Shown here piece after piece: positions 21,034 to 57,968 of a stretch of DNA of 64,000 bases; the first letter of the stretch is position 1, and each line of letters begins with the position of its first letter. Under the pieces are notes generated by a model. The model had not been told where the DNA came from. It saw only the letters and a program-made list of their open reading frames with translations, and searched no databases. Made by a program: the position numbers and the translations under genes. This stretch comes from Chlamydiota bacterium (GTDB taxonomy: Bacteria; Chlamydiota; Chlamydiia; Chlamydiales; JABDDJ01): assembly GCA_013287645.1 (NCBI GenBank), contig JABDDJ010000006.1:1441-65440 (forward strand), read 5' to 3'.

Positions 21034-21108
21034 TCTGGGTGAGAGGATTTGAACCTCCGACCCCTTGCACCCCATGCAAGTACGCTAGCCAAGCTGCGCT
21101 ACACCCAG
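21034..21108 (-). tRNA. tRNA-Pro (anticodon GGG)
   Basis: 75 nt, folded by hand: acceptor stem CTGGGTG/CACCCAG (C1-G72), D arm GCGC-AGCTTGGCTA-GCGT, anticodon stem CTTGC/GCAAG with loop ATGGGGT (GGG, G37), T arm GGAGG-TTCAAAT-CCTCT, discriminator A. CCA is not encoded. Confidence 0.9.
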
Positions 21109-21115
21109 ATAAAGA

Positions 21116-21490: not shown

Positions 21491-22174
21491 ATGTTTGAAA
21501 TTGAACCGAGCTGGAAAATGGCTCTGCAGGATGAGCTAGAGAAGGCATATCTTATCAAATTAGCTGCTTTTATCGAGCGTGAGAGGCTCTACAATGGTCC
21601 TGTGTATCCTCCTGCCTCTCTGGTCTTTAATGCGTTATGGTTAACTCCTTTTGACAAGGTATCTGTTGTGATTGTGGGCCAGGACCCCTACCATGGTCCT
21701 GGGCAGGCTCATGGGCTCTGTTTTAGCGTTCCAAAGGGGGTTGCTATTCCTCCTTCTTTGAGGAATATTTACAAGGAAATCTCGGAAGACATTGGGGCTG
21801 CTATGCCTTCTCACGGCTGTTTAATCGACTGGGCGGAACAGGGTGTTTTGCTTCTAAACACGCTAATGACTGTGCGTGAAAAGTCTCCTATGTCTCATGA
21901 GAAGCAGGGCTGGGAACAATTTACGGACGCTGTAATCTTTGCTTTGGCAAAGCGGTCTGAACCTTTGGTTTTTTTGCTTTGGGGCGCTGCTGCTCAGAAG
22001 AAATGGCAAGCGGTTGCTGGTAGTGGAATGGGTCATCAACATTTGATTTTAAAGGCGGCGCATCCTTCTCCTCTTTCGGCTCATTCGGGATTTCTGGGGT
22101 GTCGGCATTTTTCTGAGGCTAATCATTTTTTAAAACAAAAGGGAAAAAATGTGATCGAATGGGCTATAAAATAA
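21491..22174 (+). CDS. ung: uracil-DNA glycosylase
   Basis: 227 aa with GQDPYHGPGQAHGLCFSV and HPSPLSA motifs. Confidence 0.93.
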   Translation: MFEIEPSWKMALQDELEKAYLIKLAAFIERERLYNGPVYPPASLVFNALWLTPFDKVSVVIVGQDPYHGPGQAHGLCFSVPKGVAIPPSLRNIYKEISEDIGAAMPSHGCLIDWAEQGVLLLNTLMTVREKSPMSHEKQGWEQFTDAVIFALAKRSEPLVFLLWGAAAQKKWQAVAGSGMGHQHLILKAAHPSPLSAHSGFLGCRHFSEANHFLKQKGKNVIEWAIK

Positions 22175-37650: not shown

Positions 37651-40600
37651 ATGGATATGGATGAGGTCTATAGCAATCGCGTAGAGGTGTTGTACGAGCA
37701 GTTGGTGAATCAGCTCTTCTTTAGCGAAAGACAAAAACCTTTTTCACGGCGGCTAGTATTAGTTGCCAGTCCAGCAATGCGTTCTTGGTTACAGCTGCGA
37801 ATGGCCTATGATCAACGGTTAGGCATTGCTGCAGGAATGGAAATGGGGTTTGTCGAGCAGACCTTAATTTCATTAGCTAATAATTCTGATAAGTTAATTC
37901 CATCAATTCCTACACTTTCATTAGCGGTCGAGGTAACACTTAAAAAAATCCTTGATAAGGATGCACCTTATTTAGAGCCTTTAAAAAAGTGGGTGGGTGA
38001 TTCTAAAAATCCTCAAAAACAGATCAGAATCATAGGTCGTGAACTAGCGCAGCTGTTTCAACGTTATGGCACTTATGGAGATAAGTTAATTCAAGAATGG
38101 ACTCAGAAAGAGCCAGACCATTGGCAGGCATTGCTTTGGCGAGAACTATTTGATTCTGCCAAATGGAGTTATCCAGCTCAGTTACTCAAAGATGCCAGAG
38201 TTCCGTTATTGGACAGTATTCATCTGTTTGCTGTTAGTTTTGTTCCCAAGTGTTATCTGGAATATTTAAAGCGAATATCGGAGACGATCTCTGTTTCATT
38301 TTATCTTCTGTCTCCTTGCCGGGCTTTTTGGACAGATATTTTAAGCGAGAAGCATCAGCACTATCTTTTGAAAAAACTTGAAGAGAGCCGCGTATCTATA
38401 TCTCAGCAATTTGCATTAGAAGATCTTTTGCTGGATACAAATCCTCTTTTGGCTAATTTTGGACGGTTAGGCAGAGAAATGGCTGAGCAGTTTGAAGACG
38501 ATGTGATTCATCCAACTCAACAGTATGTGATTTCGGTAGGTTGTATGCATCATCCTCAGTATCAAGATCTTACTGATTACACGATGCAAAATGATCTCTC
38601 TAATACTCATTTAACGCTCCTTCATGCAGTTCAAGCGGATATGGCTTTGCTTAGAACGCCTTCTGAAGAACAAAGAATTGAAATAGAAGTCGCTGACCGA
38701 TCTATTCAAGTCCATGCAGTGCCTTCAAGATGGCGTGAAATAGAGGTATTGTACAATCTACTTGTCGATGCTATCCAGCAGTCTCATAACAGTTCTGATC
38801 CACTTACTCCCGGCGATATTGTCGTCATGGCTCCTGATATTTCTGCTTATGTCTCCTATGTACGCGCTGTTTTTGAACGTGAAGGAAGTCTTTTGCCTAT
38901 TCGAGTGATGGATTTGCATCTGCCTTCTCAAAGTCCCTATATCAAAGCATTTTTGATTCTGATTTCTCTGGGGAAAGGAGACTGGGAAAATCGTGTGATT
39001 CTTGAATTGCTAGATAGTTTTCCATTTTTAAGAAAGCAGTGTTGGAGCCGAGAAGATGCAGCAGTTTTGCGTCGCTGGACAACTCAGACAAGTGTACGTT
39101 GGGGTTTCGATCCAGTTCATCGAGATAAAATCTTACAGGCTAATCACTGTGTAAAGGAGATGATTGATCGCACCGCATCAGGAACATGGCAATCCTCATT
39201 ACAGCAACTATGTGAAAGTTTAATGCAGTCTCCCGAAGAAAAATCGCTTCTTGTAGAGATGGCCGATTCGCCCCTTTTGGGTACTTGGTGGCTATTTTTG
39301 AACAAGCTGTATAACTGTCTTCAACCCATCATCAATGGAGAGCAGCGAACTATAAAAGAATGGGTCGTCTTTTTGCGAACGTTATGTGAAGAGTATTTGG
39401 ATCATGATACTGATAATGATAGTGCAGCTGATTATAAATCCCTTTTAAGGATATTACAGGAGATCAATAGCTCTACACAACATCTCTCAGAAAGTATTCT
39501 GCCTTTTGAATCTATTTCAAAACACATTGAAGAAGCACTCGATAGAGTTCATGTCTCTTATAAAGAAGGAAACTTGCAAGCTGTGCGCTTTTGTTCGATG
39601 CTTCCGATGCGAGCTGTGCCCGCAAAAATCATCGCTATGGTAGGCATGGAGAACGACTCTTTTCCAAAACGCGGACAAGATACAACAGCGTTCGATCTTC
39701 TAAAAACTTCTGACAAAGCCGATTATTGCCCCAGACAGACAGACTTTGACCGTTATCTCTTTTTAGAGACGGTGCTCTCTGCTAGACAAAGTTTACTTTT
39801 GCTCTTTCCAGGCAGATGGAAACATACAGCACATTCATCAGAGAGTTTACCGTCACCCCTTATTGAAGAATTAATACACTATCTCGATAGAAGTTATACT
39901 TTAGGAGGAAAATTACCTTCAGAATTAATTGTTAAAGAGCATCTATTAGCAGGCTATCATCTGAAAGATGTTTCCTACTTTGCAGAGCATTATAGATGGG
40001 CAAACGCCAAGTATAACTTACCCAGAAAAGAACATGAGCCCCTTTTAGGGAATTTTGTTCCAAATCATTCTTCAAATTGTTTAGGTAATCACGTAACATT
40101 GGAAGCCTTACAATCCTTGGCTAGAAATCCACTTAAAGATTACTTTAAACATGTTTTGAAGACCCATCCCGATATTATTCATAATAAGCATCAATATTTA
40201 GAAGAGACCTTTGACCTAAAACCACGTGACCAAGGGTTGCTTAGAAGTCATCTGCTCAAAAGGCCATTTGATCAGATTATGATGGAGGCATTACACTCGG
40301 GAAAAATGCCCTTTTCACCTCTTAAAGAGATGTTTGAGTATCGTCTACAAAATGAAGATCAAAAATTTAAGCGGCAGTTCCAAGAAATTGGAATAACTCC
40401 TCAAAGTTTTTTTACACTTCAGTTTTCAGAACATTTTAGAGAGCCAAAAAAGACAGAGGAGGGGAATTGGAGCCTACCCCCGCTTAAAATAGGAACATGG
40501 TGCATTGAAGGAGAGCTCTCTTTAGTGACTTCTCAGGGCCTCATCGTCTATGCTCAAAATCAATGGGATAAATTAATCAAGTCATGGCCAGCTTACTTAG

Positions 40601-40986
40601 TCTTTTTAACAGCAATCGAGCAGTACAAGCTACCGATTTTAAATAATTTATTACCAATACACTCCACTTCTGACACTATCTGCATTCATGAAGCCTTTTT
40701 AGATAGTCCAACATCTCAACTAGAAAACTATTTACTCTACTATTCTCAAACACGACAAACACCTTCTCCGCTTATTCCTGAATGGGTCAATGCCATCATG
40801 GAAGGCAATGTGGAAAGACTTCAAAAACTATTCGATAGTGAAGAAAATCAATTTTCTTTTTCTGATGAAACCGTATCCTGGCTCTATCGAAGCGCCCAAT
40901 TACCCGACCCATACCATTTAATTAGTCACTGGCAACCTACTGCACAATTGCTCTACGAATCACTCAAAACTGCTATTGTTTTATGA
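37651..40986 (+). CDS. recC: exodeoxyribonuclease V gamma subunit (RecC)
   Basis: 1111 aa. The N-terminus VYSNRVEVLYEQL...VLVASPAMRSWLQLRMA..LGIAAG parallels E. coli RecC (YHSNRLDVL...ILVQSTGMAQWLQMTL..FGIAAN). Its stop overlaps the recB start (ATGA). Confidence 0.85.
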   Translation: MDMDEVYSNRVEVLYEQLVNQLFFSERQKPFSRRLVLVASPAMRSWLQLRMAYDQRLGIAAGMEMGFVEQTLISLANNSDKLIPSIPTLSLAVEVTLKKILDKDAPYLEPLKKWVGDSKNPQKQIRIIGRELAQLFQRYGTYGDKLIQEWTQKEPDHWQALLWRELFDSAKWSYPAQLLKDARVPLLDSIHLFAVSFVPKCYLEYLKRISETISVSFYLLSPCRAFWTDILSEKHQHYLLKKLEESRVSISQQFALEDLLLDTNPLLANFGRLGREMAEQFEDDVIHPTQQYVISVGCMHHPQYQDLTDYTMQNDLSNTHLTLLHAVQADMALLRTPSEEQRIEIEVADRSIQVHAVPSRWREIEVLYNLLVDAIQQSHNSSDPLTPGDIVVMAPDISAYVSYVRAVFEREGSLLPIRVMDLHLPSQSPYIKAFLILISLGKGDWENRVILELLDSFPFLRKQCWSREDAAVLRRWTTQTSVRWGFDPVHRDKILQANHCVKEMIDRTASGTWQSSLQQLCESLMQSPEEKSLLVEMADSPLLGTWWLFLNKLYNCLQPIINGEQRTIKEWVVFLRTLCEEYLDHDTDNDSAADYKSLLRILQEINSSTQHLSESILPFESISKHIEEALDRVHVSYKEGNLQAVRFCSMLPMRAVPAKIIAMVGMENDSFPKRGQDTTAFDLLKTSDKADYCPRQTDFDRYLFLETVLSARQSLLLLFPGRWKHTAHSSESLPSPLIEELIHYLDRSYTLGGKLPSELIVKEHLLAGYHLKDVSYFAEHYRWANAKYNLPRKEHEPLLGNFVPNHSSNCLGNHVTLEALQSLARNPLKDYFKHVLKTHPDIIHNKHQYLEETFDLKPRDQGLLRSHLLKRPFDQIMMEALHSGKMPFSPLKEMFEYRLQNEDQKFKRQFQEIGITPQSFFTLQFSEHFREPKKTEEGNWSLPPLKIGTWCIEGELSLVTSQGLIVYAQNQWDKLIKSWPAYLVFLTAIEQYKLPILNNLLPIHSTSDTICIHEAFLDSPTSQLENYLLYYSQTRQTPSPLIPEWVNAIMEGNVERLQKLFDSEENQFSFSDETVSWLYRSAQLPDPYHLISHWQPTAQLLYESLKTAIVL

Positions 40987-43900
40987 TAAGCTCATTCGAA
41001 GTCCTATCACGCAACCAGAAGCTAAAGGGCCACCAGCTATTAGAAGCCTCTGCAGGTACAGGTAAAACATTTGCGATCGAAAATTATGTTGTGCGCAGCT
41101 TATTAGAGACAGAGGAGCAGCTAGATCAAATCCTCGTCCTTACCTTTACTAAAGCAGCAGCAAGCGACCTTCAATCTCGCATACGCAATTGCATCGCACA
41201 AACCTCTGCACTGCTATCTAGCAAAAAGAATCCTCCTGACTACCTTAAAGCAATCCTCGAAAAAGATGAAGTAGCTGTCCGTTTAGCTCAGAGATACTTA
41301 CGCCGAGCTCTCTTCTCTTTTGAAAATGCACAAATTTTCACTTTTCACGGATTTTGTCATAAAATTCTTTCCGAATTATCCTTTCTCGATACAAAACAGA
41401 GCCTTTTATCCCGTACAGACATTCGAAGGTCTGTTTTGGACTTTTTCCGGACTGAACTAGACGCCTCATACATGCACCCAGCAGAACTCAACTGCTTATG
41501 GAGAGATAAAAAAACTACTGAAAAAGTCATCGAGGCTCTAGAAGCCCTAATTACCAACGGGACAAACCTTGCCGAATTACCCTCATTCAAAGAAGGCGCC
41601 CAACATTTTTGTAACGTAATCACAGAATGGCAAGAAAGCACACCTTTCACTTCTCACCATGTTTTAAATGATTTTTTAACTCTAGCAAAAAATTATAACA
41701 AAATTTTTGATCGCAACAACCAGCTAAAACCTCACTTTTCTCACTCCATGGGCCGGTTTTCAAGGATGCTAGAACAAGAACCTTCAGCTCAACAATTCGT
41801 ACAAATCATTGAAGATGGCCTTGTCTGGACTGATGCTTTAAATGAGGAGAACTTACGAAAGAAGGCTTCACCCTTAGACACCTCACAACTACTCTACCCC
41901 AATCTAGATGAGCGCGTGCGTCAGGAATTAGCTCCACGCCTATCTCACCATAATGAACCAGCCTATCTTCTGGTCCGTCTTGCAGTCGGAGCGCGTAAGC
42001 TACTTTCTCGCTATGCCGAAGCTGAGCATCGATTTACTCACGACGATCTTTTACGCAAGATGGAAAAAACAGTAGAAGATCCACATATAGCACAACAACT
42101 TCGTGAAAAATACCGCATCGTTATTGTGGATGAGTTCCAAGATACTGACCCCATCCAATGGAATATCCTAAACAAATTATTTTTAGATAGACCTCTGAAT
42201 TGGGATGGCCGTGTTGTCTTGGTAGGTGATCCTAAGCAGTCGATTTATGCCTTTCGGCAAGCTGATATCTACACCTATCTAGATGCTGCACAAACACTGG
42301 GACAAGAGTCTGCAGCTACTTTAGATACCAATTTTAGATCTCATCCAAAGCTTGTAGATGGATTAAATAAATTATTTTGCAGTGGCCTCACTCCTTCGTT
42401 AATCTCACTTCCAGCAGCTGATACATCCATCCCATGCCATCCAGTCAAAGCAGGTCTGCATGATACAGAGCTATCGTTGCTGCCTACACAAGAAGTAGGC
42501 ATCGATGTCATTGCCTCAGCCATACCCAAAAAGAAAAAGAAAATTCTTCCTGAAGAAGAAGTGTTCCCTTTCATTGCGCATGAAATACATCGCCTTTGCA
42601 AAGAATACTCTGTGAGCCCAAATCACTGTGCCATTCTCGTCAATGACCGCTATCAAGGAGAACGCTTAGCCAAAGTACTCAAAGAATGGAATATTCCCTA
42701 TAACCTTCACCGCTCTCACTCCTTAACTAAATCAGCCGCCTTTGAAGCTATCTACGAGCTCCTCGTAGCGATTATTTTCTACCGCGATTTAGCTATTGTT
42801 AAACTAGCATTAGCAGGCGAAATCCTCGGATGGTCCTCTCGACAACTACTCTCTTTAACGGATCAAAATCTCCTAGCTCATGTTCTACAGCTCTTTGCCG
42901 AATGGCATCTAATTCTATCAGAGCAGGGGATTGCCGCCTGTTTTCAAGCTGTAATCAATACTACGTATCAGAATGATCCACGATACACACATGCCGAAAT
43001 CATCCTGATGCGAGAGGAGGGAGAACAGTTCTTTCAGGACATGCTACAGGTGATAGAACTCCTCCTCGAAAACTCTCAACAATCCCTCAACTCTCCTGAA
43101 AAAATTATAGATCTCTTTGATGAACTAGAAGAACTAGAGACCAATGGAGATCCCTCTCTAACTCCTCGAAGCTTTGACAGTAGCCAAGGCGCATCCATCG
43201 TCACTATACACTCCAGCAAAGGACTCGAATACGATATCGTCTTCGCCATCGGTGTTGCTGAACGCTCTAAAGAACCCTCTCAAATCATTGTTAAACATAC
43301 ACCAGAAGGAAGGATTACACTTCCCATTGATGTCAATTCCGAAGAGTACCTCGACCACTGCGCCGAAATCGAAGCGGAAAAAATGCGTCAATTTTATGTC
43401 GCCTCGACACGAGCAAAATACAAACTCTATCTTTTCCTTGCCGCATTCACAGAAAGTATGCCCAAACAACCCACTTTAGGAACAGCCGCACAAATAGAAC
43501 TCTTTTTAAGCCATCTCTCAGGGAATGGAGAAAATATCGAAAACCTCTATAAAGGTATACAAGAACTAAATTTAGATAAGGCTAAAAAATTAATTGAAAA
43601 AATAGATCCCTATCAAGAGTCTATTCGTTATCATGAGTTAAACCCACAGAGCTCACAGAGACCACAGAGTAAAGCAAATTCTCTTTGTGATCTCTCTGGT
43701 TTTATATCTCCACCTCCACCACCCCAATTTAATTTTCCCGCTTTTCATATCTCCTCTTTCACCTCTCTTACCTCACATCTCGAAAAGCCAAAACTACATG
43801 CTTCAACACCACAACATTTAAATGACACACTCATTCAATCTCCTCATACCCTTCCAGCAGGTCCAGAAACTGGAATCATCCTTCACTCTCTTTTTGAAAA

Positions 43901-44405
43901 AATCGACTTTTCAAAAGCCAATGATCAATCGTATCTCGATAGACAACTCATTAAAAGCATTGAAACTTCCAACTTGGCTCAATGGAAAGAAATTCTTTTA
44001 ACAATTGTCTATGCGACCCTCTCAACCAATATAGAAGGTTTCAATCTCACCCAAATAGACCCGCAACTCTCTTTTCGCGAAACAGAATTCCTATACTCCT
44101 CCGAACCCACCCAGCTCATCAAAGGTGTCATCGACCTCTTTTTCAACCATCAAGGCAAATACTATCTCATCGATTGGAAAAGCAACTGGCTCGGACCAGA
44201 TGACTCCTACTATGACTCACACCATATCTCCAAAGCTATGGAAGAGCACAACTACTACCTCCAAGCCAACTTTTATAAAAATGCATTAAAAAAATATACT
44301 TATCTTTTCGATAAACGTCCCTTTGAAGAACACTTCGGAGGCATCTACTACCTATTCTTAAGAGGATTACCCAGTGGAAAAGGCATCTACAAACTACATC
44401 AATAA
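40983..44405 (+). CDS. recB: exodeoxyribonuclease V beta subunit (RecB helicase-nuclease)
   Basis: 1140 aa with SF1 helicase motifs ASAGTGKTF, IVDEFQDTD and TIHSSKGLEYDIVF, plus a C-terminal PD-(D/E)xK nuclease block VIDLFFNHQGKYYLIDWKSN. Confidence 0.9.
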   Translation: MISSFEVLSRNQKLKGHQLLEASAGTGKTFAIENYVVRSLLETEEQLDQILVLTFTKAAASDLQSRIRNCIAQTSALLSSKKNPPDYLKAILEKDEVAVRLAQRYLRRALFSFENAQIFTFHGFCHKILSELSFLDTKQSLLSRTDIRRSVLDFFRTELDASYMHPAELNCLWRDKKTTEKVIEALEALITNGTNLAELPSFKEGAQHFCNVITEWQESTPFTSHHVLNDFLTLAKNYNKIFDRNNQLKPHFSHSMGRFSRMLEQEPSAQQFVQIIEDGLVWTDALNEENLRKKASPLDTSQLLYPNLDERVRQELAPRLSHHNEPAYLLVRLAVGARKLLSRYAEAEHRFTHDDLLRKMEKTVEDPHIAQQLREKYRIVIVDEFQDTDPIQWNILNKLFLDRPLNWDGRVVLVGDPKQSIYAFRQADIYTYLDAAQTLGQESAATLDTNFRSHPKLVDGLNKLFCSGLTPSLISLPAADTSIPCHPVKAGLHDTELSLLPTQEVGIDVIASAIPKKKKKILPEEEVFPFIAHEIHRLCKEYSVSPNHCAILVNDRYQGERLAKVLKEWNIPYNLHRSHSLTKSAAFEAIYELLVAIIFYRDLAIVKLALAGEILGWSSRQLLSLTDQNLLAHVLQLFAEWHLILSEQGIAACFQAVINTTYQNDPRYTHAEIILMREEGEQFFQDMLQVIELLLENSQQSLNSPEKIIDLFDELEELETNGDPSLTPRSFDSSQGASIVTIHSSKGLEYDIVFAIGVAERSKEPSQIIVKHTPEGRITLPIDVNSEEYLDHCAEIEAEKMRQFYVASTRAKYKLYLFLAAFTESMPKQPTLGTAAQIELFLSHLSGNGENIENLYKGIQELNLDKAKKLIEKIDPYQESIRYHELNPQSSQRPQSKANSLCDLSGFISPPPPPQFNFPAFHISSFTSLTSHLEKPKLHASTPQHLNDTLIQSPHTLPAGPETGIILHSLFEKIDFSKANDQSYLDRQLIKSIETSNLAQWKEILLTIVYATLSTNIEGFNLTQIDPQLSFRETEFLYSSEPTQLIKGVIDLFFNHQGKYYLIDWKSNWLGPDDSYYDSHHISKAMEEHNYYLQANFYKNALKKYTYLFDKRPFEEHFGGIYYLFLRGLPSGKGIYKLHQ

Positions 44406-46035
44406 TCTCTGGGAAAATTGGCCGCTCCTCCAACAAGCGCTTTTTCAAGGAACCATCGAGCCAATTGATCTAATTCTCGCTCAAACAATCCTAGGTTCAA
44501 ATTCCGCCGACCTCTATCCCGCTGCCTGCACACTTTGCCACCTCCTCCTAGCTACTCGCGAAGGGCATCTCTGCATTCAAAAATTCAATAATTCCATTTA
44601 TCCCGAACCAACCGAACTACCCTCAAGCCTCATCCTCCAAGGATTTGACCAACTTCTAACATTACCCTCCAATCCCTATATCCACTTTTGGGGACACTCT
44701 CTCTATCTCCAATGCTACTGGCATTACGAAAACTCATGCATCAAACTCTTCCAACAACACGAATCTCTCACTCCAACGCACCATGTAGACGAAGCCCATT
44801 TCGCATCCCTCCTAGCCAAAAACCCCAATCTTCTCCCAGAACAATCCGACGCAATCTGGAAAATCCTCCACCACACCATCACCCTAATCACAGGAGGCCC
44901 AGGCACAGGAAAAACCTACACCGCCGGCTGTCTCATCAAAATCCTCTGGAACTCTCTACAACCCATTCAAAAACAAAATTACCAAATCGCCCTCGCCGCT
45001 CCAACCGGAAAAGCTGCCTCCCATCTACTCCAAAGCATCTCTCGCTTCATCGGCGAAGACTCACTGCCACTCGCTGCAACCACCCTTCACACACTCTTAG
45101 AACTATCACCCTATTCCAAAAAAACTCCCAAACTCACCCAAGACCTTATCCTCGTCGACGAAAGCTCCATGGTTGACATAAAACTAATGGAAACCCTTCT
45201 CAAAGCCCTAAAGCCAGGAGCCAGACTCATCCTTCTCGGAGACCATCGCCAACTCCCACCTGTTGAACCTGGTGCCCCCTTTTTCGACCTCATCAATTTC
45301 CGCTCACAATCCTCCAAACCCTCTCAACAGCCTGCTTTCTTAAAAAAATGTTTAAGGGCCGAACTCCAAGAAATCATTCACTTCGCCGATGCCATCAATC
45401 AAGGAGACGAAATCTCTATCCTTAAAATGCTCCAATCATCCAACTCTCCCATTAACGGAAAAATCCTTCCTCCAACCGAACAGTACAATTCTACCATCGA
45501 ACAACTCGCCCACAAATTTCCAATCCTCACTCAACCTGATTCTTCAGCATTAAAATCTTTTCGCATTCTAACTCCCTTACGAAGAGGACTTTGGGGAGTC
45601 GAACACATCAACCGACATATCCATTCCCATTTCCTCAAACGCGTTCCTCATGGAACCACACCCCTCATTCCTATCCTCCTTGTCGCCAATGACCACCTCC
45701 TCAAACTCTATAATGGCGAAATGGGGTTCCTCAAAGGAAATCAAGCCTACTTCCCCACGACAGAAAACGCTTGGCGCACCGTCCCAGCCGCAATACTTCC
45801 ACGCTACCAATATGGCTACTGCCTCTCCGTCCACAAAAGCCAAGGTAGCGAATTTGACCATATCACCGTCCTTCTCCCACCAGGATCCGAAACCCTAGGT
45901 CGAGCCGTCCTTTATACAGCCGTAACACGCGCTCGCCATTCCGTCGAATTATGGTACGAACCCAGCACTCTCACCCAGACCATAAAAAAAGAATACCCAC
46001 GACTTTCCAATTTTTCAGAAAAAATGTATCAATAA
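44374..46035 (+). CDS. recD: exodeoxyribonuclease V alpha subunit (RecD)
   Basis: 553 aa with ITGGPGTGKTY, LILVDESSMVD, LGDHRQLPPV and SVHKSQGSEFD. It overlaps recB by 32 nt. Confidence 0.9.
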   Translation: MEKASTNYINNLWENWPLLQQALFQGTIEPIDLILAQTILGSNSADLYPAACTLCHLLLATREGHLCIQKFNNSIYPEPTELPSSLILQGFDQLLTLPSNPYIHFWGHSLYLQCYWHYENSCIKLFQQHESLTPTHHVDEAHFASLLAKNPNLLPEQSDAIWKILHHTITLITGGPGTGKTYTAGCLIKILWNSLQPIQKQNYQIALAAPTGKAASHLLQSISRFIGEDSLPLAATTLHTLLELSPYSKKTPKLTQDLILVDESSMVDIKLMETLLKALKPGARLILLGDHRQLPPVEPGAPFFDLINFRSQSSKPSQQPAFLKKCLRAELQEIIHFADAINQGDEISILKMLQSSNSPINGKILPPTEQYNSTIEQLAHKFPILTQPDSSALKSFRILTPLRRGLWGVEHINRHIHSHFLKRVPHGTTPLIPILLVANDHLLKLYNGEMGFLKGNQAYFPTTENAWRTVPAAILPRYQYGYCLSVHKSQGSEFDHITVLLPPGSETLGRAVLYTAVTRARHSVELWYEPSTLTQTIKKEYPRLSNFSEKMYQ

Positions 46036-46039
46036 AGAC

Positions 46040-46786
46040 ATGAAAGGAAAATTTAAAATTGTCGTCCCCTCCTTCAATAGCGTGGAGTATCTACCCAAAA
46101 CCCTCCGCTCCATTGAAAGCCAAATCAACAAAAACTTTGACGTCTGCGTTATCGACGACTACTCCTCACTCAAACAACAACGCAGTATCATCTTAGATTT
46201 TTGCCAAAGAAACCATTGGAAATATATCTTCCATGACACCAATGTCGGAGCCCTTGCCAGCATCGTCGAAGGCATCCAACACCTCCAATGCAAAGATGAC
46301 GACGTCATCGTCATGCTCGATGGAGATGATTGGCTCTACGACTCTCACGTCCTCACCAAACTCGACAAAATCTACACAGAAGAAGACGTCTACCTCACTT
46401 GGGGACAGTTTGAATCCTATCCACCCCATGTCATCAATATCAATTATGCAGAAGACATAGACGACCATATCATCGATGAAAAACTCTACCGCACAATTAC
46501 AGACGTCTTTTGCCACCTCAAAACTTACAAATACCGCCTCTACCGCGAAATTAAAGACAAAGACCTACGCGACCAAAATGGAAAATACTTCCTCGTCTCA
46601 TGGGATAAAGCACTCATGTATCCCATGCTCGAAATGGCAGGACACAAAGTCCGCTTCGTCCCAGATACCCTATATGTATACAATATCGATAACCCCCTTA
46701 ACGACTTCAAAGTCAACCGAGAAGAACAGATCGAAGCCACCAACTACATCAAAAACAAAAAACCCTACAAACTCCTCAAACTCTAA
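46040..46786 (+). CDS. family 2 glycosyltransferase
   Basis: 248 aa with KIVVPSFNSVEYLPKTLRSIESQ, VIDDYSS and the DXD-type MLDGDDW. Confidence 0.8.
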   Translation: MKGKFKIVVPSFNSVEYLPKTLRSIESQINKNFDVCVIDDYSSLKQQRSIILDFCQRNHWKYIFHDTNVGALASIVEGIQHLQCKDDDVIVMLDGDDWLYDSHVLTKLDKIYTEEDVYLTWGQFESYPPHVININYAEDIDDHIIDEKLYRTITDVFCHLKTYKYRLYREIKDKDLRDQNGKYFLVSWDKALMYPMLEMAGHKVRFVPDTLYVYNIDNPLNDFKVNREEQIEATNYIKNKKPYKLLKL

Positions 46787-46801
46787 CACTAAGGAATACC
46801 C

Positions 46802-47647
46802 ATGCGCTATTTACTCCTCTTATTAACCACACTATCTTTAACTACCCATCTACAAGCTATCGAAGAACAAATAAAAGATCCAAAACTCTATAAACAAGTA
46901 CTAAGTTATAATCCCCAACTCGTTAACAGCTATTACTATGACCCCATACCACTAGAAGAATTCGTAGAATTCCTTAACATTTACGAAAATAGACCCATCG
47001 AAACAAACATCTGCGGAATGCGTTCAGAAGGAAATTTCTTCCTATGGCACCTCCTCCGAAAAATCAAACCCTCACTCGTCATCGAAAGCGGAGTATGGAA
47101 AGGACAAAGCACCTGGACAATAGAACAAGCCGTACCTGAAGCAGAAATCATTTGCATGGATCCCGATCTAACTAACAGAATTTACATCTCTCAAGACGCA
47201 TTCTATACAACCACCGACTTCTCAGAATATGAGTTTGATCTCCCTGAAGGAAAACCCGTTGTAGCCTTCTTTGATGACCATATCAACGCCTATGATAGAG
47301 TTCTACAATGCTCCGTCAAAGGAATCAAACACATCATATTTGATGATAACTACGCACCAGGATTCGACGACTGCGTCCCCGGACACCTCACCCTCCGAGA
47401 TTGCTTCGAAATGGGAGAACACCGTGGCAAAGCAGCCGTACTTAAACACATCATCAAACGCTATGCCATCACTCCACAGATCGTTGGAAGAATGGTAAAA
47501 TACTTTCCCAACAGCAAAGCTGACAGCAACCAACCAGCCCTCTGGAAAACCCTAAACGAAATTGACCCATCAATACGCAATCGTATGAAAGTCTTTTACA
47601 ACGACGGAGCACGCTACAGATGGCTCACCTATGTAGAGTTATACTAA
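46802..47647 (+). CDS. hypothetical protein, methyltransferase-fold candidate (CmcI/TylF-like)
   Basis: 281 aa. Leader peptide; VIESGVWKGQSTW and AFFDDH...IIFDDN blocks resemble those of the MTase at 56451-57131. Confidence 0.5.
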   Translation: MRYLLLLLTTLSLTTHLQAIEEQIKDPKLYKQVLSYNPQLVNSYYYDPIPLEEFVEFLNIYENRPIETNICGMRSEGNFFLWHLLRKIKPSLVIESGVWKGQSTWTIEQAVPEAEIICMDPDLTNRIYISQDAFYTTTDFSEYEFDLPEGKPVVAFFDDHINAYDRVLQCSVKGIKHIIFDDNYAPGFDDCVPGHLTLRDCFEMGEHRGKAAVLKHIIKRYAITPQIVGRMVKYFPNSKADSNQPALWKTLNEIDPSIRNRMKVFYNDGARYRWLTYVELY

Positions 47648-47658
47648 CCTGTGTGAAT

Positions 47659-54311
<6,653 letters not shown>

Positions 54312-54452
54312 ATTCTGAGTTCAAAGGGTTTTTCATAAGTACAATAAATTGTTTAAATAAGTATTTCAATCAAAAAATTTGACAAAATTGATATGAATAT
54401 TTTTACTTGTCATGCAGGATGCAAAATTTAAAAATGATTTTAAGAGTGAGAT

Positions 54453-55499
54453 ATGAAATATCTGTTTTTGGTTTTTGTGTCAGGGTTAGTTTTATTTGTA
54501 TCGGCTATATCCGCTAGTATTCAAGGTATTTTAATTGCAAAGCCTATTGATAAACTGGTCATTTCAACTAAAAGAATCTACCTTCCCAGCTATCCTGGAG
54601 CATATAATCCCTCTATTATTAAGTTTAAAGAGGGTTATTTGATGATTTTTAGATACCTTCCGAGTCGGTATCATCAGCCTTGGCTCTCATGCATAGGGGC
54701 TGTATTACTGAATAATTCGTTTGAACCTATTTCGCATACTCAGTTGATTGACACTCGTTTTAATGATAAGAGAACGTTTTCGCAGGCTGAAGACCCGCGT
54801 GTGTTTAGTTTCGATGATAGGTTGTTTTTAATTTACAATGATAACATGGAAAAGATGTATCCATCGCTTCAGGATAGGCGTGACATGTATATTGCAGAGC
54901 TTTTTTATTTGCATAAGCAGTTTTTTATCTCTGATCCGGTTAAGTTGGTGCATGAATCGAGGTATGATACGGTTCTTTGGCAGAAAAATTGGAGTCCTTT
55001 TGTTTGGAATGGGTCTTTACTGTTCTCTTATTCGATTAATCCGCATGAAGTGGTCATTCCTGATCTTTCTACAGGTATTTGTAAAAGGGTATATGAAACA
55101 AATAGAGCGCTTTCTTGGAATTATGGGACGTTAAGGGGGAGTGCACCTGTTCAATTAGTCGATGGGGAATATTTGGGATTTTTTCATTCTGGAACAGTAA
55201 CTAGGACTACTTCTTCGGATAATAGGGATATGTGGCATTACTTTATGGGTGCTTATACTTTTGCTGCTGAGCCCCCTTTTGAATTGACAAAGATCAGCCC
55301 ATTTCCGATTGATTCGCTAGAGTTTTATACTTATTCGAGCTATGAGAAGCGTGTGATTTATCCTGGTGGGTTTGTGGTGGATGGCTCAAATCTTTATTTG
55401 TCATATGGAAAGGATGATTCGGAAATTTGGATTGCAACGATTGATTTAAATGCTCTTAAAGACTCACTGGTACCAGCTCATGAGATACAATACAGATAG
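54453..55499 (+). CDS. GH130/DUF377-like beta-propeller protein (glycoside phosphorylase/transferase-fold candidate)
   Basis: 348 aa with a signal peptide. AYNPSIIKFKEGYLMIFRY and AEDPRVFSFDDRLFLIYND blocks. Paralogous to the C-terminus of the 707-aa protein. Confidence 0.55.
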   Translation: MKYLFLVFVSGLVLFVSAISASIQGILIAKPIDKLVISTKRIYLPSYPGAYNPSIIKFKEGYLMIFRYLPSRYHQPWLSCIGAVLLNNSFEPISHTQLIDTRFNDKRTFSQAEDPRVFSFDDRLFLIYNDNMEKMYPSLQDRRDMYIAELFYLHKQFFISDPVKLVHESRYDTVLWQKNWSPFVWNGSLLFSYSINPHEVVIPDLSTGICKRVYETNRALSWNYGTLRGSAPVQLVDGEYLGFFHSGTVTRTTSSDNRDMWHYFMGAYTFAAEPPFELTKISPFPIDSLEFYTYSSYEKRVIYPGGFVVDGSNLYLSYGKDDSEIWIATIDLNALKDSLVPAHEIQYR

Positions 55500-56436
55500 T
55501 AGAACGTTAATTAAATTCTTTACTTTGTTTTTTGTTCTGCTATATGGACTTCTTGTAGCAAAATTGGAAGATCACTTTAAAATCCCTTTGGACAAATCGG
55601 GGCCTCATCAGATACGCAATATCGACTTTATTTATATGCTTAATTTGGATGAGCGGCCGGAGAAATTTATGCATTCTGTTGACGAATTGGCTCCTTATGG
55701 GATTACGCCGTTTCGTTTTTCAGCTGTCAATGGTTGGGAGCTTTCCTATGAAGTGATAGATGATGTTGGGGTTAAATATGTGCCTTGGATGAAACAGGGT
55801 TTGATGGGAACCTGTTATTTTCCTGAGTATGAGGGAGAGCCTTTTCATGAAGTGATGCAGGTGATGGGAAGGAACTATTTTTGTCACTGTATGGCGAGAG
55901 GGGCTATAGGAATTATTTTGAGTCATCTATCTATTCTTAAAGATGCGTATGATTCTGGTTATGAAACGATTTGGGTGATGGAAGATGATGTTGAGGTGAT
56001 TAAGGATCCTCATTTGATGTCAGACCTTATTGAGAAACTAGATAGCCTTGTGGGCAAGGATGGATGGGATTTTCTGTTTACTGATCAAGACACTAAGGAT
56101 CAGAATGGCCAGTACGTACCCTGTTTGGGGCATGCCTTACGACCAAATTTTACGCCTAGCAATCCTTATAAATTTTTAGAACGAGTAGATATTAGCCCAG
56201 AGTTTAGAAGGGTAGGAGCCCGTTACGGGGCATATTCGATGATTGTAAGAAGGTCTGGAATGAAGAAAATGCTTGACTTTACCCGTGAAGGGATTTTCTT
56301 ACCTTACGACATGGAATATACCCTACCGGATGATATTCGTATGTACAATGTACGCGAAGATGTTGTTTCGACTCAGCCGAGAGCTCTTTCAGACAATGGA
56401 GCGCCCAATTATAAGCATAAACTCATTGCACACTGA
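55480..56436 (+). CDS. family 25 glycosyltransferase
   Basis: IDFIYMLNLDERPEKF...ITPFRFSAVNG and GAIGIILSHLSILKDAYDSGYETIWVMEDDVEV fit the GT25 pattern. The probable start is Met11 of the ORF that opens at 55450. Confidence 0.75.
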   Translation: MRYNTDSRTLIKFFTLFFVLLYGLLVAKLEDHFKIPLDKSGPHQIRNIDFIYMLNLDERPEKFMHSVDELAPYGITPFRFSAVNGWELSYEVIDDVGVKYVPWMKQGLMGTCYFPEYEGEPFHEVMQVMGRNYFCHCMARGAIGIILSHLSILKDAYDSGYETIWVMEDDVEVIKDPHLMSDLIEKLDSLVGKDGWDFLFTDQDTKDQNGQYVPCLGHALRPNFTPSNPYKFLERVDISPEFRRVGARYGAYSMIVRRSGMKKMLDFTREGIFLPYDMEYTLPDDIRMYNVREDVVSTQPRALSDNGAPNYKHKLIAH

Positions 56437-56450
56437 ACAGGAGTTATTTC

Positions 56451-57131
56451 ATGGATCTATATGATCATCAAGGCGATAAACCAGACTATCATTATGAATG
56501 TATCGAGATGGTATCGAATACTAATATACTAGCTCAGAGGTCGAAAGAGGTAGCATTTAACTACATGGACCATTTGGAGGGCTGGTGTACACATAATAAG
56601 GCTTCCGTTTTAGTGGATTTGATTTTTATGTTGAAGCCTAAAATTGTAGTAGAAATCGGTGTGTGGGGAGGAAAGTCTTTGGTTCCAATGGGCTTAGCTC
56701 TTAAAGTCAACGGAAGAGGAAAAGCCTACGGAATAGACCCATGGGATTCTGGGGCCTCATCTGAAGGGATGGATGGTGTGAATTATGACTGGTGGAGTCA
56801 GGTGGATCATCAAATGATATTACGAGGACTACAGGCAAAAATTAGTGAATATAATCTACAAGCAAATATAGAGCTGATTAAGTCTACATCTGAGAATGCT
56901 CCATTAATTCCGAATATTGATATTTTGCATATCGATGGTAACCATTCTGAAAAGGCAGCAAATTTAGATGCTCATAAGTGGGTTCCTTTAGTGAGAAGGG
57001 GAGGAATTATTATTTTTGACGATATTACTTGGGGAACGACGGCGAGTGCGGTTAAGTGGATGGATGAAAATTGTATTCGGTTAGCCGAATTTCATGAAGA
57101 TAATGACTGGGGCATTTGGGTAAAGCCTTAA
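56451..57131 (+). CDS. class I SAM-dependent methyltransferase (Methyltransf_24-like)
   Basis: 226 aa with VVEIGVWGGKS and ILHIDGNHSEKAANLDAHKWVPLVRRGGIIIFDDI. Confidence 0.8.
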   Translation: MDLYDHQGDKPDYHYECIEMVSNTNILAQRSKEVAFNYMDHLEGWCTHNKASVLVDLIFMLKPKIVVEIGVWGGKSLVPMGLALKVNGRGKAYGIDPWDSGASSEGMDGVNYDWWSQVDHQMILRGLQAKISEYNLQANIELIKSTSENAPLIPNIDILHIDGNHSEKAANLDAHKWVPLVRRGGIIIFDDITWGTTASAVKWMDENCIRLAEFHEDNDWGIWVKP

Positions 57132-57968
57132 ATGCCAGAATTGCCTGAAGTTGAAATCATTGTTCGAGAACTTAGAGCTAGCCATTTACTGGGCCTGAAA
57201 ATTCGCGAAGTGGTTGTATTTTGGCCTAGAAGTATTGCTGAGCCGAGTATTGAGGAATTCTGTCAACAGATTCGCAATCAAACCATTAAAGATATAACTC
57301 GTCGAGGTAAGTATATCGTCTTTTCGTTGAGTCAGCAGACTTTGCTTGTGCACTTGCGTATGACGGGTAAGTTTTCTATCTCTATGCAACAAGAGATAAA
57401 GTCATCTCATGAGCGCGTCCAATTGCGTTTAGCGGATGGGCGCACTCTTCATTATGAGGATCAGCGTAAATTTGGAAAATGGTATTTACTTTTTGATCCG
57501 AGGACAAAATTACATAATCTAGGTATAGAGCCTCTATCCGAAGCGTTTACTCTGAAGGCTTTTCAACAGCTCCTTAAAACGAGCTCGCAGCAGATCAAAC
57601 CATTTTTGTTGGATCAGAAGCATTTGGTGGGCTTGGGAAATATTTATGTGGATGAGGCGTTATGGGCTTCAAAAATTCACCCAGAACAAAAAACAAATGA
57701 GGTAAAACAAGCTCAAATAAAAACTTTGCATGTAGCTATTATCGATGTTTTAAAGCAGGGGATTGAGTACCAAGGAACAACTCTGGGGTCGACACGAGCC
57801 AATTATTATAGTGTTTCAGGCCAACGGGGAGGACATCAGACTCAGTTAAAAGTGTTTAGACGTGATGGGCTACACTGCCCGAGATGTCAAACTGAGATCA
57901 TTCGGATTAAGGTGGCCCAAAGAAGCAGTCACATATGTCCAAAGTGTCAAAAAAAAACATATTCTTAA
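57132..57968 (+). CDS. mutM: formamidopyrimidine-DNA glycosylase
   Basis: 278 aa with N-terminal MPELPEVE, an H2TH region and a C-terminal zinc finger CPRCQ...CPKCQ. Confidence 0.95.
   Translation: MPELPEVEIIVRELRASHLLGLKIREVVVFWPRSIAEPSIEEFCQQIRNQTIKDITRRGKYIVFSLSQQTLLVHLRMTGKFSISMQQEIKSSHERVQLRLADGRTLHYEDQRKFGKWYLLFDPRTKLHNLGIEPLSEAFTLKAFQQLLKTSSQQIKPFLLDQKHLVGLGNIYVDEALWASKIHPEQKTNEVKQAQIKTLHVAIIDVLKQGIEYQGTTLGSTRANYYSVSGQRGGHQTQLKVFRRDGLHCPRCQTEIIRIKVAQRSSHICPKCQKKTYS

What the first reader, a model, noticed from the sequence alone, without database searches (positions are those of the whole stretch)
40900..47650. Extreme C>>G, A-rich coding-strand composition confined to recB-recD-GT2-281aa, starting inside an operon
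Seen, from hand counts of 100-nt plus-strand windows:
- recC start, 37651-37750: G27/C17
- recD, 44881-44980: G14/C33
- recD, 45061-45160: G8/C41
- further right, 55141-55240: G25/C14

Other observations:
- Codon usage flips from TTA/TTG Leu and T/G-ending codons in recC to CTC/CTA and C-ending codons in recD and the GT2 gene.
- The shift builds up gradually from the 3' end of recC through recB, although recC/recB/recD are overlap-coupled.
- A similar C-rich patch occurs at ~35.0-35.7 kb.
- The G-poor composition explains the many spurious same-strand overlapping ORFs here.
- The minus-strand 707-aa gene also has a C/A-rich coding strand.

Inference: this could be a displaced replication-skew segment, a local mutational regime, or a codon-usage island (donor or expression related). 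None of these fits cleanly, because the transition lies inside a coupled operon.
Basis: seen in the sequence. Interest (0 to 1): 0.6.

Follow-up and report, generated by a model that had tools for sequence, protein, structure and literature searches.

The report
Extreme G-poor strand block in recBCD operon
The far end of a DNA-repair operon in an uncultured chlamydia has almost lost the base G on its coding strand, apparently the strongest case of a one-sided mutation pressure that grows along operons throughout this genome.

Summary
All four hand counts and the Leu codon flip reproduce exactly. The block holds the strongest GC skew in this 2.53-Mb MAG. recD is the most C-skewed of 1689 ORFs, and p281, GT2 and recD have the three lowest third-position G fractions of 1564 ORFs. 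G is 1.7% at their four-fold sites.

It is not confined to recB-p281. It starts in the 3' end of recC (~40.5 kb) and runs to ~48.1 kb. There the minus-strand C-terminal part of the collagen-like gene has the inverse coding skew, so the bias belongs to the DNA strand.

It arose in situ:
- RecC, RecB and RecD are sister to those of the same-genus genome.
- Synteny is kept across the transition.
- Relatives lack the skew.
- RecD's amino-acid make-up is deformed (GAVDE z -4.1).

Genome-wide, skew follows the DNA strand in patchy domains. In addition, coding-strand skew falls 5'->3' along operon-like runs (66 of 86 runs; -0.03 to -0.07 per kb). That gradient is absent from two comparator genomes. 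The recC-p281 unit is one of the longest tightly coupled runs, so its distal end reaches the floor.

Best reading: the extreme tail of a lineage-specific, strand-asymmetric mutational regime. The molecular cause is unknown.

The parts
37651..40986 (+). recC (1111 aa), first gene of the tightly coupled unit. Coding strand is G-rich at its 5' end, and the skew turns negative from ~40.5 kb.
   Evidence: Pfam Exonuc_V_gamma 2e-47 and RecC_C. Third-position skew by 80-codon windows runs from +0.33/+0.50 down to -0.33/-0.48. 42% identical to the G001 orthologue and sister to it.
40983..44405 (+). recB (1140 aa), overlapping recC by 4 nt. Intermediate zone of the gradient.
   Evidence: Pfam UvrD-helicase 2e-47 and UvrD_C. 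gcs3 -0.47; four-fold sites G 6.7%, C 32%. Best two-step model puts steps at 40.5 and 43.7 kb.
44374..46035 (+). recD (553 aa), overlapping recB by 32 nt. Most C-skewed gene of the genome, with deformed amino-acid composition.
   Evidence: Pfam AAA_19/AAA_30/UvrD_C_2. gcs -0.448, gcs1 -0.21, gcs2 -0.38, gcs3 -0.78; rank 1 of 1689 ORFs. GAVDE z -4.1 and PHQT z +4.1 against 11 orthologues. Largest negative skew difference of 182 orthologue pairs with G001.
46040..46786 (+). Family-2 glycosyltransferase (248 aa), 4 nt after recD. An accessory gene not found next to recD in relatives.
   Evidence: Pfam Glycos_transf_2 3e-18. gcs3 -0.81, four-fold G 1.2%, C 67%. No homologue in 16 relatives' recD loci.
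46802..47647 (+). p281, an orphan 281-aa ORF and last gene of the unit. No G at any of its 110 four-fold sites.
   Evidence: No Pfam family above cut-off. Four-fold G 0.0%. Found only in G000 among 200 scored genomes of the order.
47662..48120 (-). Non-collagen C-terminal ('knob') part of the convergent collagen-like gene. Its coding strand is G-rich, so it shares the DNA-strand polarity of the block.
   Evidence: Translation shows Gly-X-Y repeats ending ~48120. Four-fold sites G19/C6, p=5.5e-5 against the genome mean. Fisher p=2e-10 against the 707-aa gene on the same strand.
40500..48120 (.). The skew block itself: plus strand C- and A-rich, minus strand G- and T-rich, whichever strand codes.
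   Evidence: K-corrected four-fold plus-strand skew per kb is -0.45, -0.21, -0.42, -0.59, -0.69, -0.69, -0.76, -0.40. Composition of 44374-47647: G 14.2%, C 31.0%, A 32.3%, T 22.4%.
48121..52239 (-). Collagen repeats and N-terminal part of the collagen-like gene. The polarity switch from - to + lies here. Skew cannot be read cleanly inside the 9-nt periodic repeats.
   Evidence: Pfam Collagen 4e-176. Plus-strand four-fold skew +0.12 to +0.76. 9-nt periodic repeats.
52188..57968 (.). Opposite-polarity block (plus strand G/T-rich). It holds the 707-aa GT2-TPR-GH130 gene (-), then GH130, GT25, methyltransferase and Fpg genes (+).
   Evidence: Pfam. 707 coding gcs4 -0.66 to -0.86; GH130 +0.64; GT25, MT and Fpg +0.28 to +0.32. 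K-corrected skew +0.45 to +0.86.

Best explanation
The block (about 40.5-48.1 kb) is the extreme tail of a lineage-specific, strand-asymmetric mutation pressure that acts across this chlamydial genome. It arose in place.

Within the block the minus strand carries a large excess of G and T, and the plus strand an excess of C and A. This is the signature left when one strand suffers more C->T and A->G change, as in single-strand deamination. The plus strand is the coding strand of recB, recD, GT2 and p281. Their synonymous sites have therefore almost lost G, and RecD has lost Gly/Ala/Val/Asp/Glu codons and gained Pro/His/Gln/Thr codons.

Two genome-wide components add up here:
1. Patchy domains in which skew follows the DNA strand whichever way genes point.
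2. A steady fall of coding-strand GC skew, with a rise of AT skew, from the 5' to the 3' end of operon-like gene runs.

recC-recB-recD-GT2-p281 is one of the longest tightly coupled units (10 kb) and lies in a negative domain, so its distal end hits the floor.

Shown: the composition, its strand nature, its in-situ origin, and the genome-wide gradient with its absence from two comparators.

Inferred: the gradient reflects transcription-linked exposure. On this view the non-template strand is deaminated near promoters, with the effect decaying with distance. The distal part is then dominated by exposure of the template strand, through head-on replication and/or antisense transcription entering from the convergent collagen-like gene.
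For: Synonymous sites: four-fold sites of recD+GT2+p281 are G 1.7%, C 50.7%, A 30.7%, T 16.8%. The genome is 13.1/24.4/28.7/33.9. G is 6.4% of purine-ending two-fold codons against 32% genome-wide.

Strand nature:
- Opposite-strand neighbours have anticorrelated coding skew (r=-0.505, n=425); same-strand neighbours correlate positively (r=+0.62, n=900).
- The minus-strand knob inside the block is G-rich (G19/C6 at four-fold sites).

Mutational, not translational:
- gcs1 -0.21 and gcs2 -0.38 in recD.
- RecD GAVDE z -4.1 and PHQT z +4.1.
- G avoidance in two-fold purine codons exceeds that of GroEL (0.064 against 0.244).

In situ:
- RecC, RecB and RecD are each sister to G001's protein, with the G000 branches shorter.
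- Identity to G001 and to the outgroups is flat along the operon.
- Gene order p985-p524-recC-recB-recD is shared with G001.
- None of 16 relatives shows the skew: RecB and RecD gene skew is -0.15 to +0.24.
- RecD is the largest negative difference of 182 orthologue pairs.

Operon gradient:
- Slope is negative in 66 of 86 runs (Wilcoxon 2e-7).
- Within-run slope is -0.033/kb, p=9e-20, n=762, and unchanged without this contig.
- It is -0.069/kb with gaps <40 nt (49 of 60 runs negative). No shuffle of 1000 reaches the observed slope.
- AT skew rises along runs.
- This run's own slope is -0.071/kb.
- It is the 8th longest of 1099 tight runs. 20 of 24 genes lying >6 kb into a tight run are C-skewed.

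Comparators: the G001 sample has slope -0.0015/kb (n=155) and the G018 sample +0.005/kb (n=127). Both have coherent, weaker skew.
Against: - The average gradient predicts only about -0.25 at >6 kb into a run. recD, GT2 and p281 sit at -0.66 to -0.76, so an extra domain term of unknown origin is needed.
- The neighbouring 707-collagen unit runs against the rule, with its 5' gene C-rich and its 3' knob G-rich.
- The distal polarity (coding strand C/A-rich) is opposite to classical transcription-induced deamination of the non-template strand.
- Genome-wide, the last gene of a run is no more C-rich when the downstream neighbour is convergent (-0.003) than when it is tandem (-0.020). Antisense entry is therefore not generally supported.
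- There are no expression data. Runs are defined by spacing only, and genes by longest ORFs.
- Origin and terminus cannot be placed in a 132-contig, 72.8%-complete MAG.
- No missing repair or termination gene explains the lineage specificity: UDG, Rho and Mfd are all present.
- The comparators are only two samples, of 420 and 400 kb.
Confidence: 0.6

Rival explanations
1. Displaced replication-skew segment. The block kept the lagging-strand composition of an earlier orientation after an inversion or translocation in a heavily rearranged genome.
For: - Skew is DNA-strand based and patchy. At least 8 origin-like and 8 terminus-like polarity switches of |0.63-1.19| occur over the contigs scanned.
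- G000 and G001 are extensively rearranged. Orthologues of one 180-kb G001 stretch lie on at least 7 G000 contigs.
- Synteny with G001 ends right after recD.
- In Protochlamydia amoebophila a genomic island gives a local inversion of the cumulative skew (PMC548262 and PMC5010888, passages read).
Against: - The left boundary lies inside an intact, overlap-coupled operon whose order is shared with G001 and other relatives.
- A one-step boundary is rejected (BIC 1401 against 1357/1359).
- A similar +/- switch lies inside a 40-kb block collinear with G001 (contig C4).
- Skew changes are no larger at synteny breakpoints than at conserved adjacencies. That test is weak: 7 breakpoints against 115 conserved adjacencies.
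- Synonymous sites have long re-equilibrated since the G000/G001 split (r=0.27 between orthologues).
Confidence: 0.12
2. Local change of fork direction. Either the fork-meeting (terminus) zone lies across recC/recB, or leftward forks start at the collagen repeat (for example R-loop primed). In both cases the block would be replicated against the direction of its flanks.
For: - The -/+ switch across the collagen-like gene is the strongest origin-like switch in the genome when a 4.5-kb gap is allowed (V=1.19), and second without a gap (0.95).
- The polarity on both sides is that of forks leaving the centre.
- The right edge is sharp (knob against repeats), and the left edge is graded.
- A graded switch is what a trap-less termination zone would leave (inference).
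Against: - Several other switches of similar size exist, and a chromosome has one origin and one terminus.
- There is no dnaA in this contig. The dnaA genes lie on C12 and C19, and C12 has its own origin-like switch 13 kb from dnaA.
- DnaA-box-like words are not enriched (16 found, 17 expected).
- There is no intergenic room. The only gaps between 37.6 and 54.3 kb are 4-15 nt.
- No dif-like site was found.
- The negative steps between neighbours are specific to closely spaced co-oriented genes. They are not seen at other junctions, which points to transcription units rather than forks.
Confidence: 0.1
3. Donor or codon-usage island. The block was imported, with its composition, from another organism.
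For: - GT2 and p281 are accessory. They are absent from 16 relatives' recD loci, and p281 was found in none of 199 other genomes of the order.
- GC3 is raised (0.44-0.56 against 0.34 in recC).
- The 707-aa gene of the adjoining cluster is patchily distributed and lacks a full-length match in G001.
- GT2 and p281 have normal first- and second-position skew, as expected for shorter exposure or for arrival already skewed.
Against: - recB and recD carry the same composition yet are sister to G001's genes with short branches.
- The identity profile shows no step.
- Homologous replacement from a lineage with opposite, saturated synonymous skew is implausible (inference).
- No tRNA, integrase or flanking direct repeats lie at the edges.
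- Orthologues of the 707-aa gene elsewhere are much less skewed (-0.37 to +0.26).
Confidence: 0.08
4. Antisense read-through from the convergent collagen-like gene is the main driver. Leftward transcription would expose the minus strand over p281, GT2, recD and recB, decaying with distance.
For: - Only 11 nt separate the two stop codons (47647 and 47659).
- No terminator-like hairpin lies on the minus strand before 46314.
- The polarity and the leftward decay fit.
- The knob, transcribed in sense, is G-rich.
Against: - The N-terminal part of the same gene and the co-oriented 707-aa gene upstream have the opposite polarity.
- Genome-wide, a convergent downstream neighbour makes no difference.
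- Terminator- and promoter-like sites are at chance level (19 against 17.9; 24 against 32.8), so their absence says little.
- There are no RNA data.
Confidence: 0.1
5. Translational selection. The genes use the C- and A-ending codons favoured in highly expressed genes.
For: - GroEL and ribosomal-protein genes are also C-rich and G-poor at four-fold sites (GroEL G 2.2%, C 60%).
- Ribosomal-protein genes are C-skewed in both G000 and G001.
Against: - The top C-skewed genes have mixed functions.
- Non-synonymous positions and protein composition are shifted.
- G avoidance in two-fold purine codons is far beyond GroEL's.
- The opposite-strand knob has the inverse skew.
- The change runs gradually through genes.
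Confidence: 0.03

Closest known systems
Replication-associated GC/AT skew of bacterial chromosomes (leading strand G- and T-rich). In Parachlamydiaceae, the third-position skew described for Protochlamydia amoebophila (PMC2216083, passages read).
   Same: The skew follows the DNA strand rather than the gene. There is a keto (G+T) excess on one strand, and it is strongest at synonymous sites.
   Different: - The magnitude is far larger: four-fold skew -0.94 here, against a leading-strand median third-position skew of 0.129 +/- 0.167 in P. amoebophila.
- Polarity changes many times over 5-20 kb instead of once at the origin and once at the terminus.
- Part of the signal tracks position within transcription units.
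Local inversion of the cumulative GC skew at the genomic island Pam100G of Protochlamydia amoebophila (PMC548262; PMC5010888; passages read)
   Same: A short stretch of a parachlamydial chromosome with reversed skew slope and raised G+C, next to accessory genes.
   Different: Pam100G is a 100-kb mobile island with tRNA, direct repeats, transposases and tra genes. Here the reversed stretch is 7.6 kb, has no such marks, and covers vertically inherited recB and recD.
Strand asymmetry of vertebrate mitochondrial DNA, graded by the time a strand spends single-stranded (general knowledge; PMC4182315 seen in a search listing only)
   Same: A coding strand very poor in G and rich in C and A at four-fold sites. 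The bias changes gradually along the DNA, and protein composition is affected.
   Different: The organelle replicates by strand displacement. No such replication mode is known or shown for this bacterium, and here the gradient follows operon-like runs.
[quoted passage not shown] Also transcription-linked skew at 5' ends of human genes (PMC3787257, listing only; otherwise recalled).
   Same: A skew gradient along transcription units. It is present at four-fold sites and strong enough to bias amino-acid usage.
   Different: The sign is opposite to fungi: here the 5' end is G-rich and the 3' end C-rich. The scale is kilobases across several genes of an operon, and it is a bacterium. The pattern is seen in one genome and not in two relatives sampled.

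Membership tests
Replication-associated strand compositional asymmetry | Skew follows the DNA strand irrespective of gene orientation | tested here: met
   Opposite-strand neighbours r=-0.505 (n=425). Minus-strand knob inside the block G19/C6.
Replication-associated strand compositional asymmetry | Polarity changes only at origin and terminus, with similar magnitude along a replichore | tested here: not met
   At least 8 switches of each sign with |V| 0.63-1.19. D is unimodal around 0, sd 0.26, range -0.72 to +0.71. The G001 and G018 samples are coherent over 180-400 kb.
Replication-associated strand compositional asymmetry | The block lies on the lagging strand of the current replichore | not testable with these tools
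   The MAG has 132 contigs and is 72.8% complete. No dif-like site was found. dnaA lies on other contigs.
Transcription-associated mutational asymmetry | Skew depends on direction of, and position within, transcription units | tested here: met
   66 of 86 runs have a negative slope. Within-run slope -0.033/kb, p=9e-20. No shuffle of 1000 reaches the observed slope. The slope is steeper with stricter spacing. Runs are inferred from spacing only.
Transcription-associated mutational asymmetry | Non-template (coding) strand enriched in G and T | tested here: not met
   In the block the coding strand is C- and A-rich. Only the promoter-proximal part of recC is G-rich.
Transcription-associated mutational asymmetry | Strength scales with expression level | not testable with these tools
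   No RNA holder was listed for this DNA.
Horizontally acquired genomic island | Genes absent from close relatives or phylogenetically incongruent | tested here: inconclusive
   Met for GT2 and p281. Not met for recB and recD, which are sister to G001.
Horizontally acquired genomic island | Mobility marks at the edges (tRNA, integrase, direct repeats) | tested here: not met
   The only tRNA is tRNA-Pro at 21033-21109. No flanking direct repeats were found apart from the collagen periodicity.
Translational-selection codon bias | Confined to synonymous sites of the coding strand of highly expressed genes | tested here: not met
   gcs1 and gcs2 are shifted and RecD's composition is deformed. The knob has the inverse skew. 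The top-skewed genes have mixed functions.
RecBCD (exonuclease V) operon | RecC, RecB and RecD domain sets in one co-oriented unit | tested here: met
   Pfam hits above cut-offs for all three. The same order is seen in 12 of 16 relatives' loci where all three genes were found.

The most novel reading that the evidence does not exclude
This chlamydial lineage has acquired a transcription-unit-polar mutational process. Strand bias changes steadily with distance from the operon start, by about 0.03-0.07 skew units per kb at four-fold sites. It ends with near-total loss of G from the coding strand of distal genes and a remodelling of their proteins. It would be a bacterial counterpart of the 5'-3' skew gradients of eukaryotic genes. 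It appears within a genus, so its cause (altered handling of R-loops, transcription-replication conflicts or coupled repair) could be found by comparing close relatives.
Probability: 0.35. Interest if true: 0.65.

Novelty: new variant of a known kind. Interest (0 to 1): 0.5.

Why it matters
Strand skews are used to place origins, to check metagenome assemblies and to flag foreign DNA. Here a 7.6-kb reversal of skew, with G at 1.7% of four-fold sites, lies in vertically inherited repair genes. It would be misread by all three uses.

If the 5'->3' decline along operons is a real mutational effect, it gives a natural system for studying how transcription shapes mutation in bacteria. One genome has it and a congener does not. 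It also shows that mutation pressure alone can shift the amino-acid make-up of a helicase subunit by about a quarter of its G-coded residues, without speeding its overall divergence.

Tried and rejected
- The search for related loci on genome contigs with RecD found no confirmed relative. Relatives were then reached with the genome search.
- A dif-like site was sought with three recalled motifs. There were no hits at <=5 mismatches for the two long ones, and 354 hits for the short degenerate one, so the result is uninformative.
- DnaA-box words in the window were at chance level (16 found, 17 expected).
- The promoter and terminator scan of 39.0-58.9 kb was at chance level (24 against 32.8; 19 against 17.9).
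- Sequencing runs: one DNA holder, kept as contigs and possibly the source of the window. No RNA holder was listed.
- Loss of UDG, Rho or Mfd as the cause: all three are present in G000.
- Skew change at synteny breakpoints against conserved adjacencies: only 7 breakpoints, no difference, underpowered.
- Effect of a convergent against a tandem downstream neighbour on the last gene of a run: none.
- Flanking direct or inverted repeats around the accessory cluster: none beyond chance-size matches and the collagen periodicity.
- Earlier scan notes searched for 'skew': nothing found.
- Literature: three full-text searches (listings and abstract starts only) showed no paper describing a skew gradient along bacterial operons. 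This is not proof that none exists.

Full report
**What is there.** The window is contig C6 (1441-65440) of a 2.53-Mb, 132-contig MAG that is 72.8% complete. Earlier notes of this scan call it an environmental chlamydia. That label fits the V-type ATPase, the Pkn-type kinase and the second RecD-like gene seen here, on recalled knowledge of the phylum.

- recC (37651-40986), recB (40983-44405) and recD (44374-46035);
- a family-2 glycosyltransferase (46040-46786);
- an orphan 281-aa ORF (46802-47647);
- then, converging on them after an 11-nt spacer, a 1526-aa collagen-like gene (47659-52239, minus strand) and a 707-aa GT2-TPR-GH130 gene (52188-54311, minus strand);
- then GH130, GT25, methyltransferase and Fpg genes on the plus strand.

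- The four hand counts and the Leu codon flip reproduce exactly.
- GC skew in 1-kb windows is -0.15 to -0.44 between 40 and 48 kb and reaches -0.52 in 300-nt windows.
- The window at 44.6-45.6 kb is the most skewed of 2456 in the genome.
- recD is the most C-skewed of 1689 ORFs, and GT2 has the lowest third-position skew.
- p281, GT2 and recD have the three lowest third-position G fractions of 1564 ORFs.
- At four-fold sites of these three genes, G is 1.7%, C 50.7%, A 30.7% and T 16.8%. The genome is 13.1/24.4/28.7/33.9.
- The onset is gradual. Third-position skew is +0.3 to +0.5 at the start of recC, near zero at 39.3-40.3 kb, -0.2 to -0.8 through recB, and about -0.8 from 44.6 to 47.6 kb.
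- A ramp (BIC 1357) and two steps at 40.5 and 43.7 kb (BIC 1359) fit equally. One step is rejected (BIC 1401).

**It is a property of the DNA strand and of mutation, not of codon choice.**
- Genome-wide, neighbouring genes on opposite strands have anticorrelated coding-strand skew (r=-0.505, n=425). Same-strand neighbours correlate positively (r=+0.62, n=900).
- Inside the block, the only minus-strand coding DNA is the non-collagen C-terminal part of the collagen-like gene (47662-48120). It has the inverse coding skew, G19/C6 at four-fold sites. This gives p=5.5e-5 against the genome mean and p=2e-10 against the 707-aa gene on the same strand. The block therefore runs from about 40.5 to 48.1 kb.
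That polarity is shared with the G-rich plus-strand genes to its right.
- First and second codon positions of recD are also shifted (gcs1 -0.21, gcs2 -0.38).
- RecD has 22.1% Gly+Ala+Val+Asp+Glu against 31.0 +/- 2.2 in 11 orthologues (z -4.1). It has 24.4% Pro+His+Gln+Thr against 16.0 +/- 2.0 (z +4.1). RecB and RecC are shifted less.
- G avoidance in purine-ending two-fold codons (6.4%) is far beyond that of GroEL (24%).
- The most C-skewed genes of the genome have mixed functions.
- The direction of change is loss of G and T and gain of C on the plus strand, which means a G+T excess on the minus strand. This is what C->T and A->G changes on the minus strand would leave. The link to deamination of single-stranded DNA is inference from established models.

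**It arose in place.**
- None of 16 relatives has anything similar. Their RecB and RecD gene skew is -0.15 to +0.24.
- In the same-genus genome G001 the order p985-p524-recC-recB-recD is conserved. Synteny ends right after recD.
- In trees of RecC, RecB and RecD, G000 is sister to G001 each time, with the shorter branch.
- Identity to G001 and to the outgroups is flat along the operon.
- Among 182 reciprocal-best orthologue pairs with G001 (median identity 60%), RecD shows the largest negative difference in four-fold skew, -0.98.
- GT2 and p281 are accessory. p281 was found in none of 199 other scored genomes of the order. The 707-aa gene is patchily distributed, and its orthologues are much less skewed.

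**The genome-wide setting.**
- After subtracting the mean coding bias (K0 = -0.24 at four-fold sites), the strand term D is unimodal around zero. Its sd is 0.26 and its extremes are about +/-0.7.
- D forms patches of 5-20 kb.
- At least eight origin-like and eight terminus-like polarity switches of |0.63-1.19| occur. The one across the collagen-like gene is the strongest when the repeat is skipped.
- By contrast, 420 kb of G001 and 400 kb of a complete genome of the order (G018) show coherent, weaker skew.
- One 40-kb block of G000 that is collinear with G001 also contains a +/- switch. Switches therefore do not need rearrangement.
- The dnaA genes are on other contigs. C12 has its own origin-like switch 13 kb from dnaA. 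DnaA-box words are not enriched in the window.

**The in-operon transition is the rule in this genome.**
- In 86 runs of at least four co-oriented genes with gaps under 120 nt, coding-strand four-fold skew falls from 5' to 3' in 66 (Wilcoxon 2e-7).
- The pooled within-run slope is -0.033 per kb (p=9e-20, n=762), and it is unchanged without contig C6.
- With gaps under 40 nt the slope is -0.069 per kb (49 of 60 runs negative). No shuffle of 1000 reorderings of genes within runs reaches the observed slope.
- AT skew rises along runs, and GC3 does not change.
- Long genes are more G-rich in their 5' half (229 of 389, p=2e-5).
- Only closely spaced co-oriented neighbours show the negative step. 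Other junctions do not.
- The G001 and G018 samples show no such slope: -0.0015 and +0.005 per kb.
- The recC-p281 run has slope -0.071 per kb. It is the 8th longest of 1099 tight runs. 20 of 24 genes lying more than 6 kb into a tight run are C-skewed.
- These runs are inferred from spacing alone, and genes from longest ORFs. No transcript data exist for this organism.

**Synthesis.** The block is best read as the place where two components of one unusual, lineage-specific mutational regime add up. One is a negative strand domain. The other is the distal end of a long operon.

This explains four things:
- why the shift starts inside a coupled operon;
- why it is graded;
- why it is extreme here;
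- why RecD, a fast-evolving resident protein, is deformed, while the accessory GT2 and p281 are skewed at synonymous sites only.

It does not explain four others:
- The domain term itself is unexplained. The average gradient gives about -0.25 at this distance into a run, against -0.66 to -0.76 observed.
- The neighbouring 707-collagen unit runs against the rule.
- The reason this lineage differs from its congener is unknown. UDG, Rho and Mfd are all present.
- Antisense entry from the collagen-like gene is possible at this locus, given the 11-nt spacer and no convincing terminator. It is not supported as a general cause.

**Rivals.** Five rivals are scored in their own section: a displaced replication segment, a local fork-direction anomaly, a donor island, antisense read-through, and translational selection. 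None is excluded outright except, nearly, the last.

**Comparison with what is known.**
- The kind of signal is known: strand compositional asymmetry from asymmetric mutation.
- Local reversals of cumulative skew are known in Parachlamydiaceae at a 100-kb mobile island (PMC548262, PMC5010888). That is a different thing from a 7.6-kb reversal across vertically inherited genes.
- Third-position skews reported for P. amoebophila are far weaker (PMC2216083).
- Skew gradients along transcription units are described for fungi, with the opposite sign (PMC3315797, abstract).
- Three full-text searches listed no description of such a gradient along bacterial operons. This is a limited search, not proof of absence.
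- I therefore class it as a new variant of a known kind.

**Limits.**
- The MAG is fragmented and incomplete.
- Genes were called by a crude ORF rule.
- K0 is a single constant.
- The comparators are partial samples of two genomes.
- No expression, depth or polymorphism data were available.

Noticed in passing
whole genome G000 (e.g. C17:9950-22125, C10:26798-37536, C39:7247-20806, C31:2963-9361, C4:19239-27153): Other long co-oriented gene runs show the same fall of coding-strand four-fold GC skew, from about +0.5/+0.9 at the 5' end to -0.1/-0.7 at the 3' end. The pattern is absent from 420 kb of the same-genus genome and from 400 kb of a complete genome of the order.
   Followed up: yes
G000 contig C12:9500-26400, outside the window: A 17-kb domain with plus-strand skew -0.4 to -0.75 in genes of both orientations. 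It contains a dnaA gene (12148-13500) and rpsD, and it ends abruptly at 26.4 kb. This is a candidate chromosomal origin region.
   Followed up: partly
window 21033-21109: tRNA-Pro(GGG) sits where the plus-strand skew jumps from about -0.1 to +0.6. This is the border between the low-GC3 NRPS-bearing region (1-20 kb) and strongly skewed genes.
   Followed up: no
window 21491-22174 and 57132-57968: Two base-excision glycosylase genes lie inside the two strongly G-rich patches that flank the block. They are a UDG-family gene and an Fpg/MutM gene. Two UDG-family genes were found in G001 and only one in this 73%-complete MAG.
   Followed up: partly
window 46802-47647: p281 is an orphan. It has no Pfam family above cut-off and no homologue in 199 other scored genomes of the order.
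   Followed up: partly
window 46040-57131: GT2, p281, the collagen-like gene, a GT2-TPR-GH130 fusion, GH130, GT25 and a methyltransferase form an accessory cluster that is absent downstream of recD in G001. The skew polarity switch lies inside it, between the collagen repeats and the C-terminal domain.
   Followed up: partly
G000 contig C22:26300-38800 and G001 C1:110-123 kb: Ribosomal-protein genes are C-skewed on the coding strand in both genomes, whatever the local strand domain. This suggests selection for C-ending codons in highly expressed genes of this clade.
   Followed up: no
G000 contig C4:48723-56725: Four tandem paralogue-sized genes (622-668 aa) have very low GC3 (0.25-0.27) and weak skew. 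They interrupt a strongly skewed domain.
   Followed up: no
window 44688-45176 (+): A 162-aa ORF lies in an alternative frame inside recD. It is best explained by the scarcity of stop codons in G- and T-poor sequence.
   Followed up: partly
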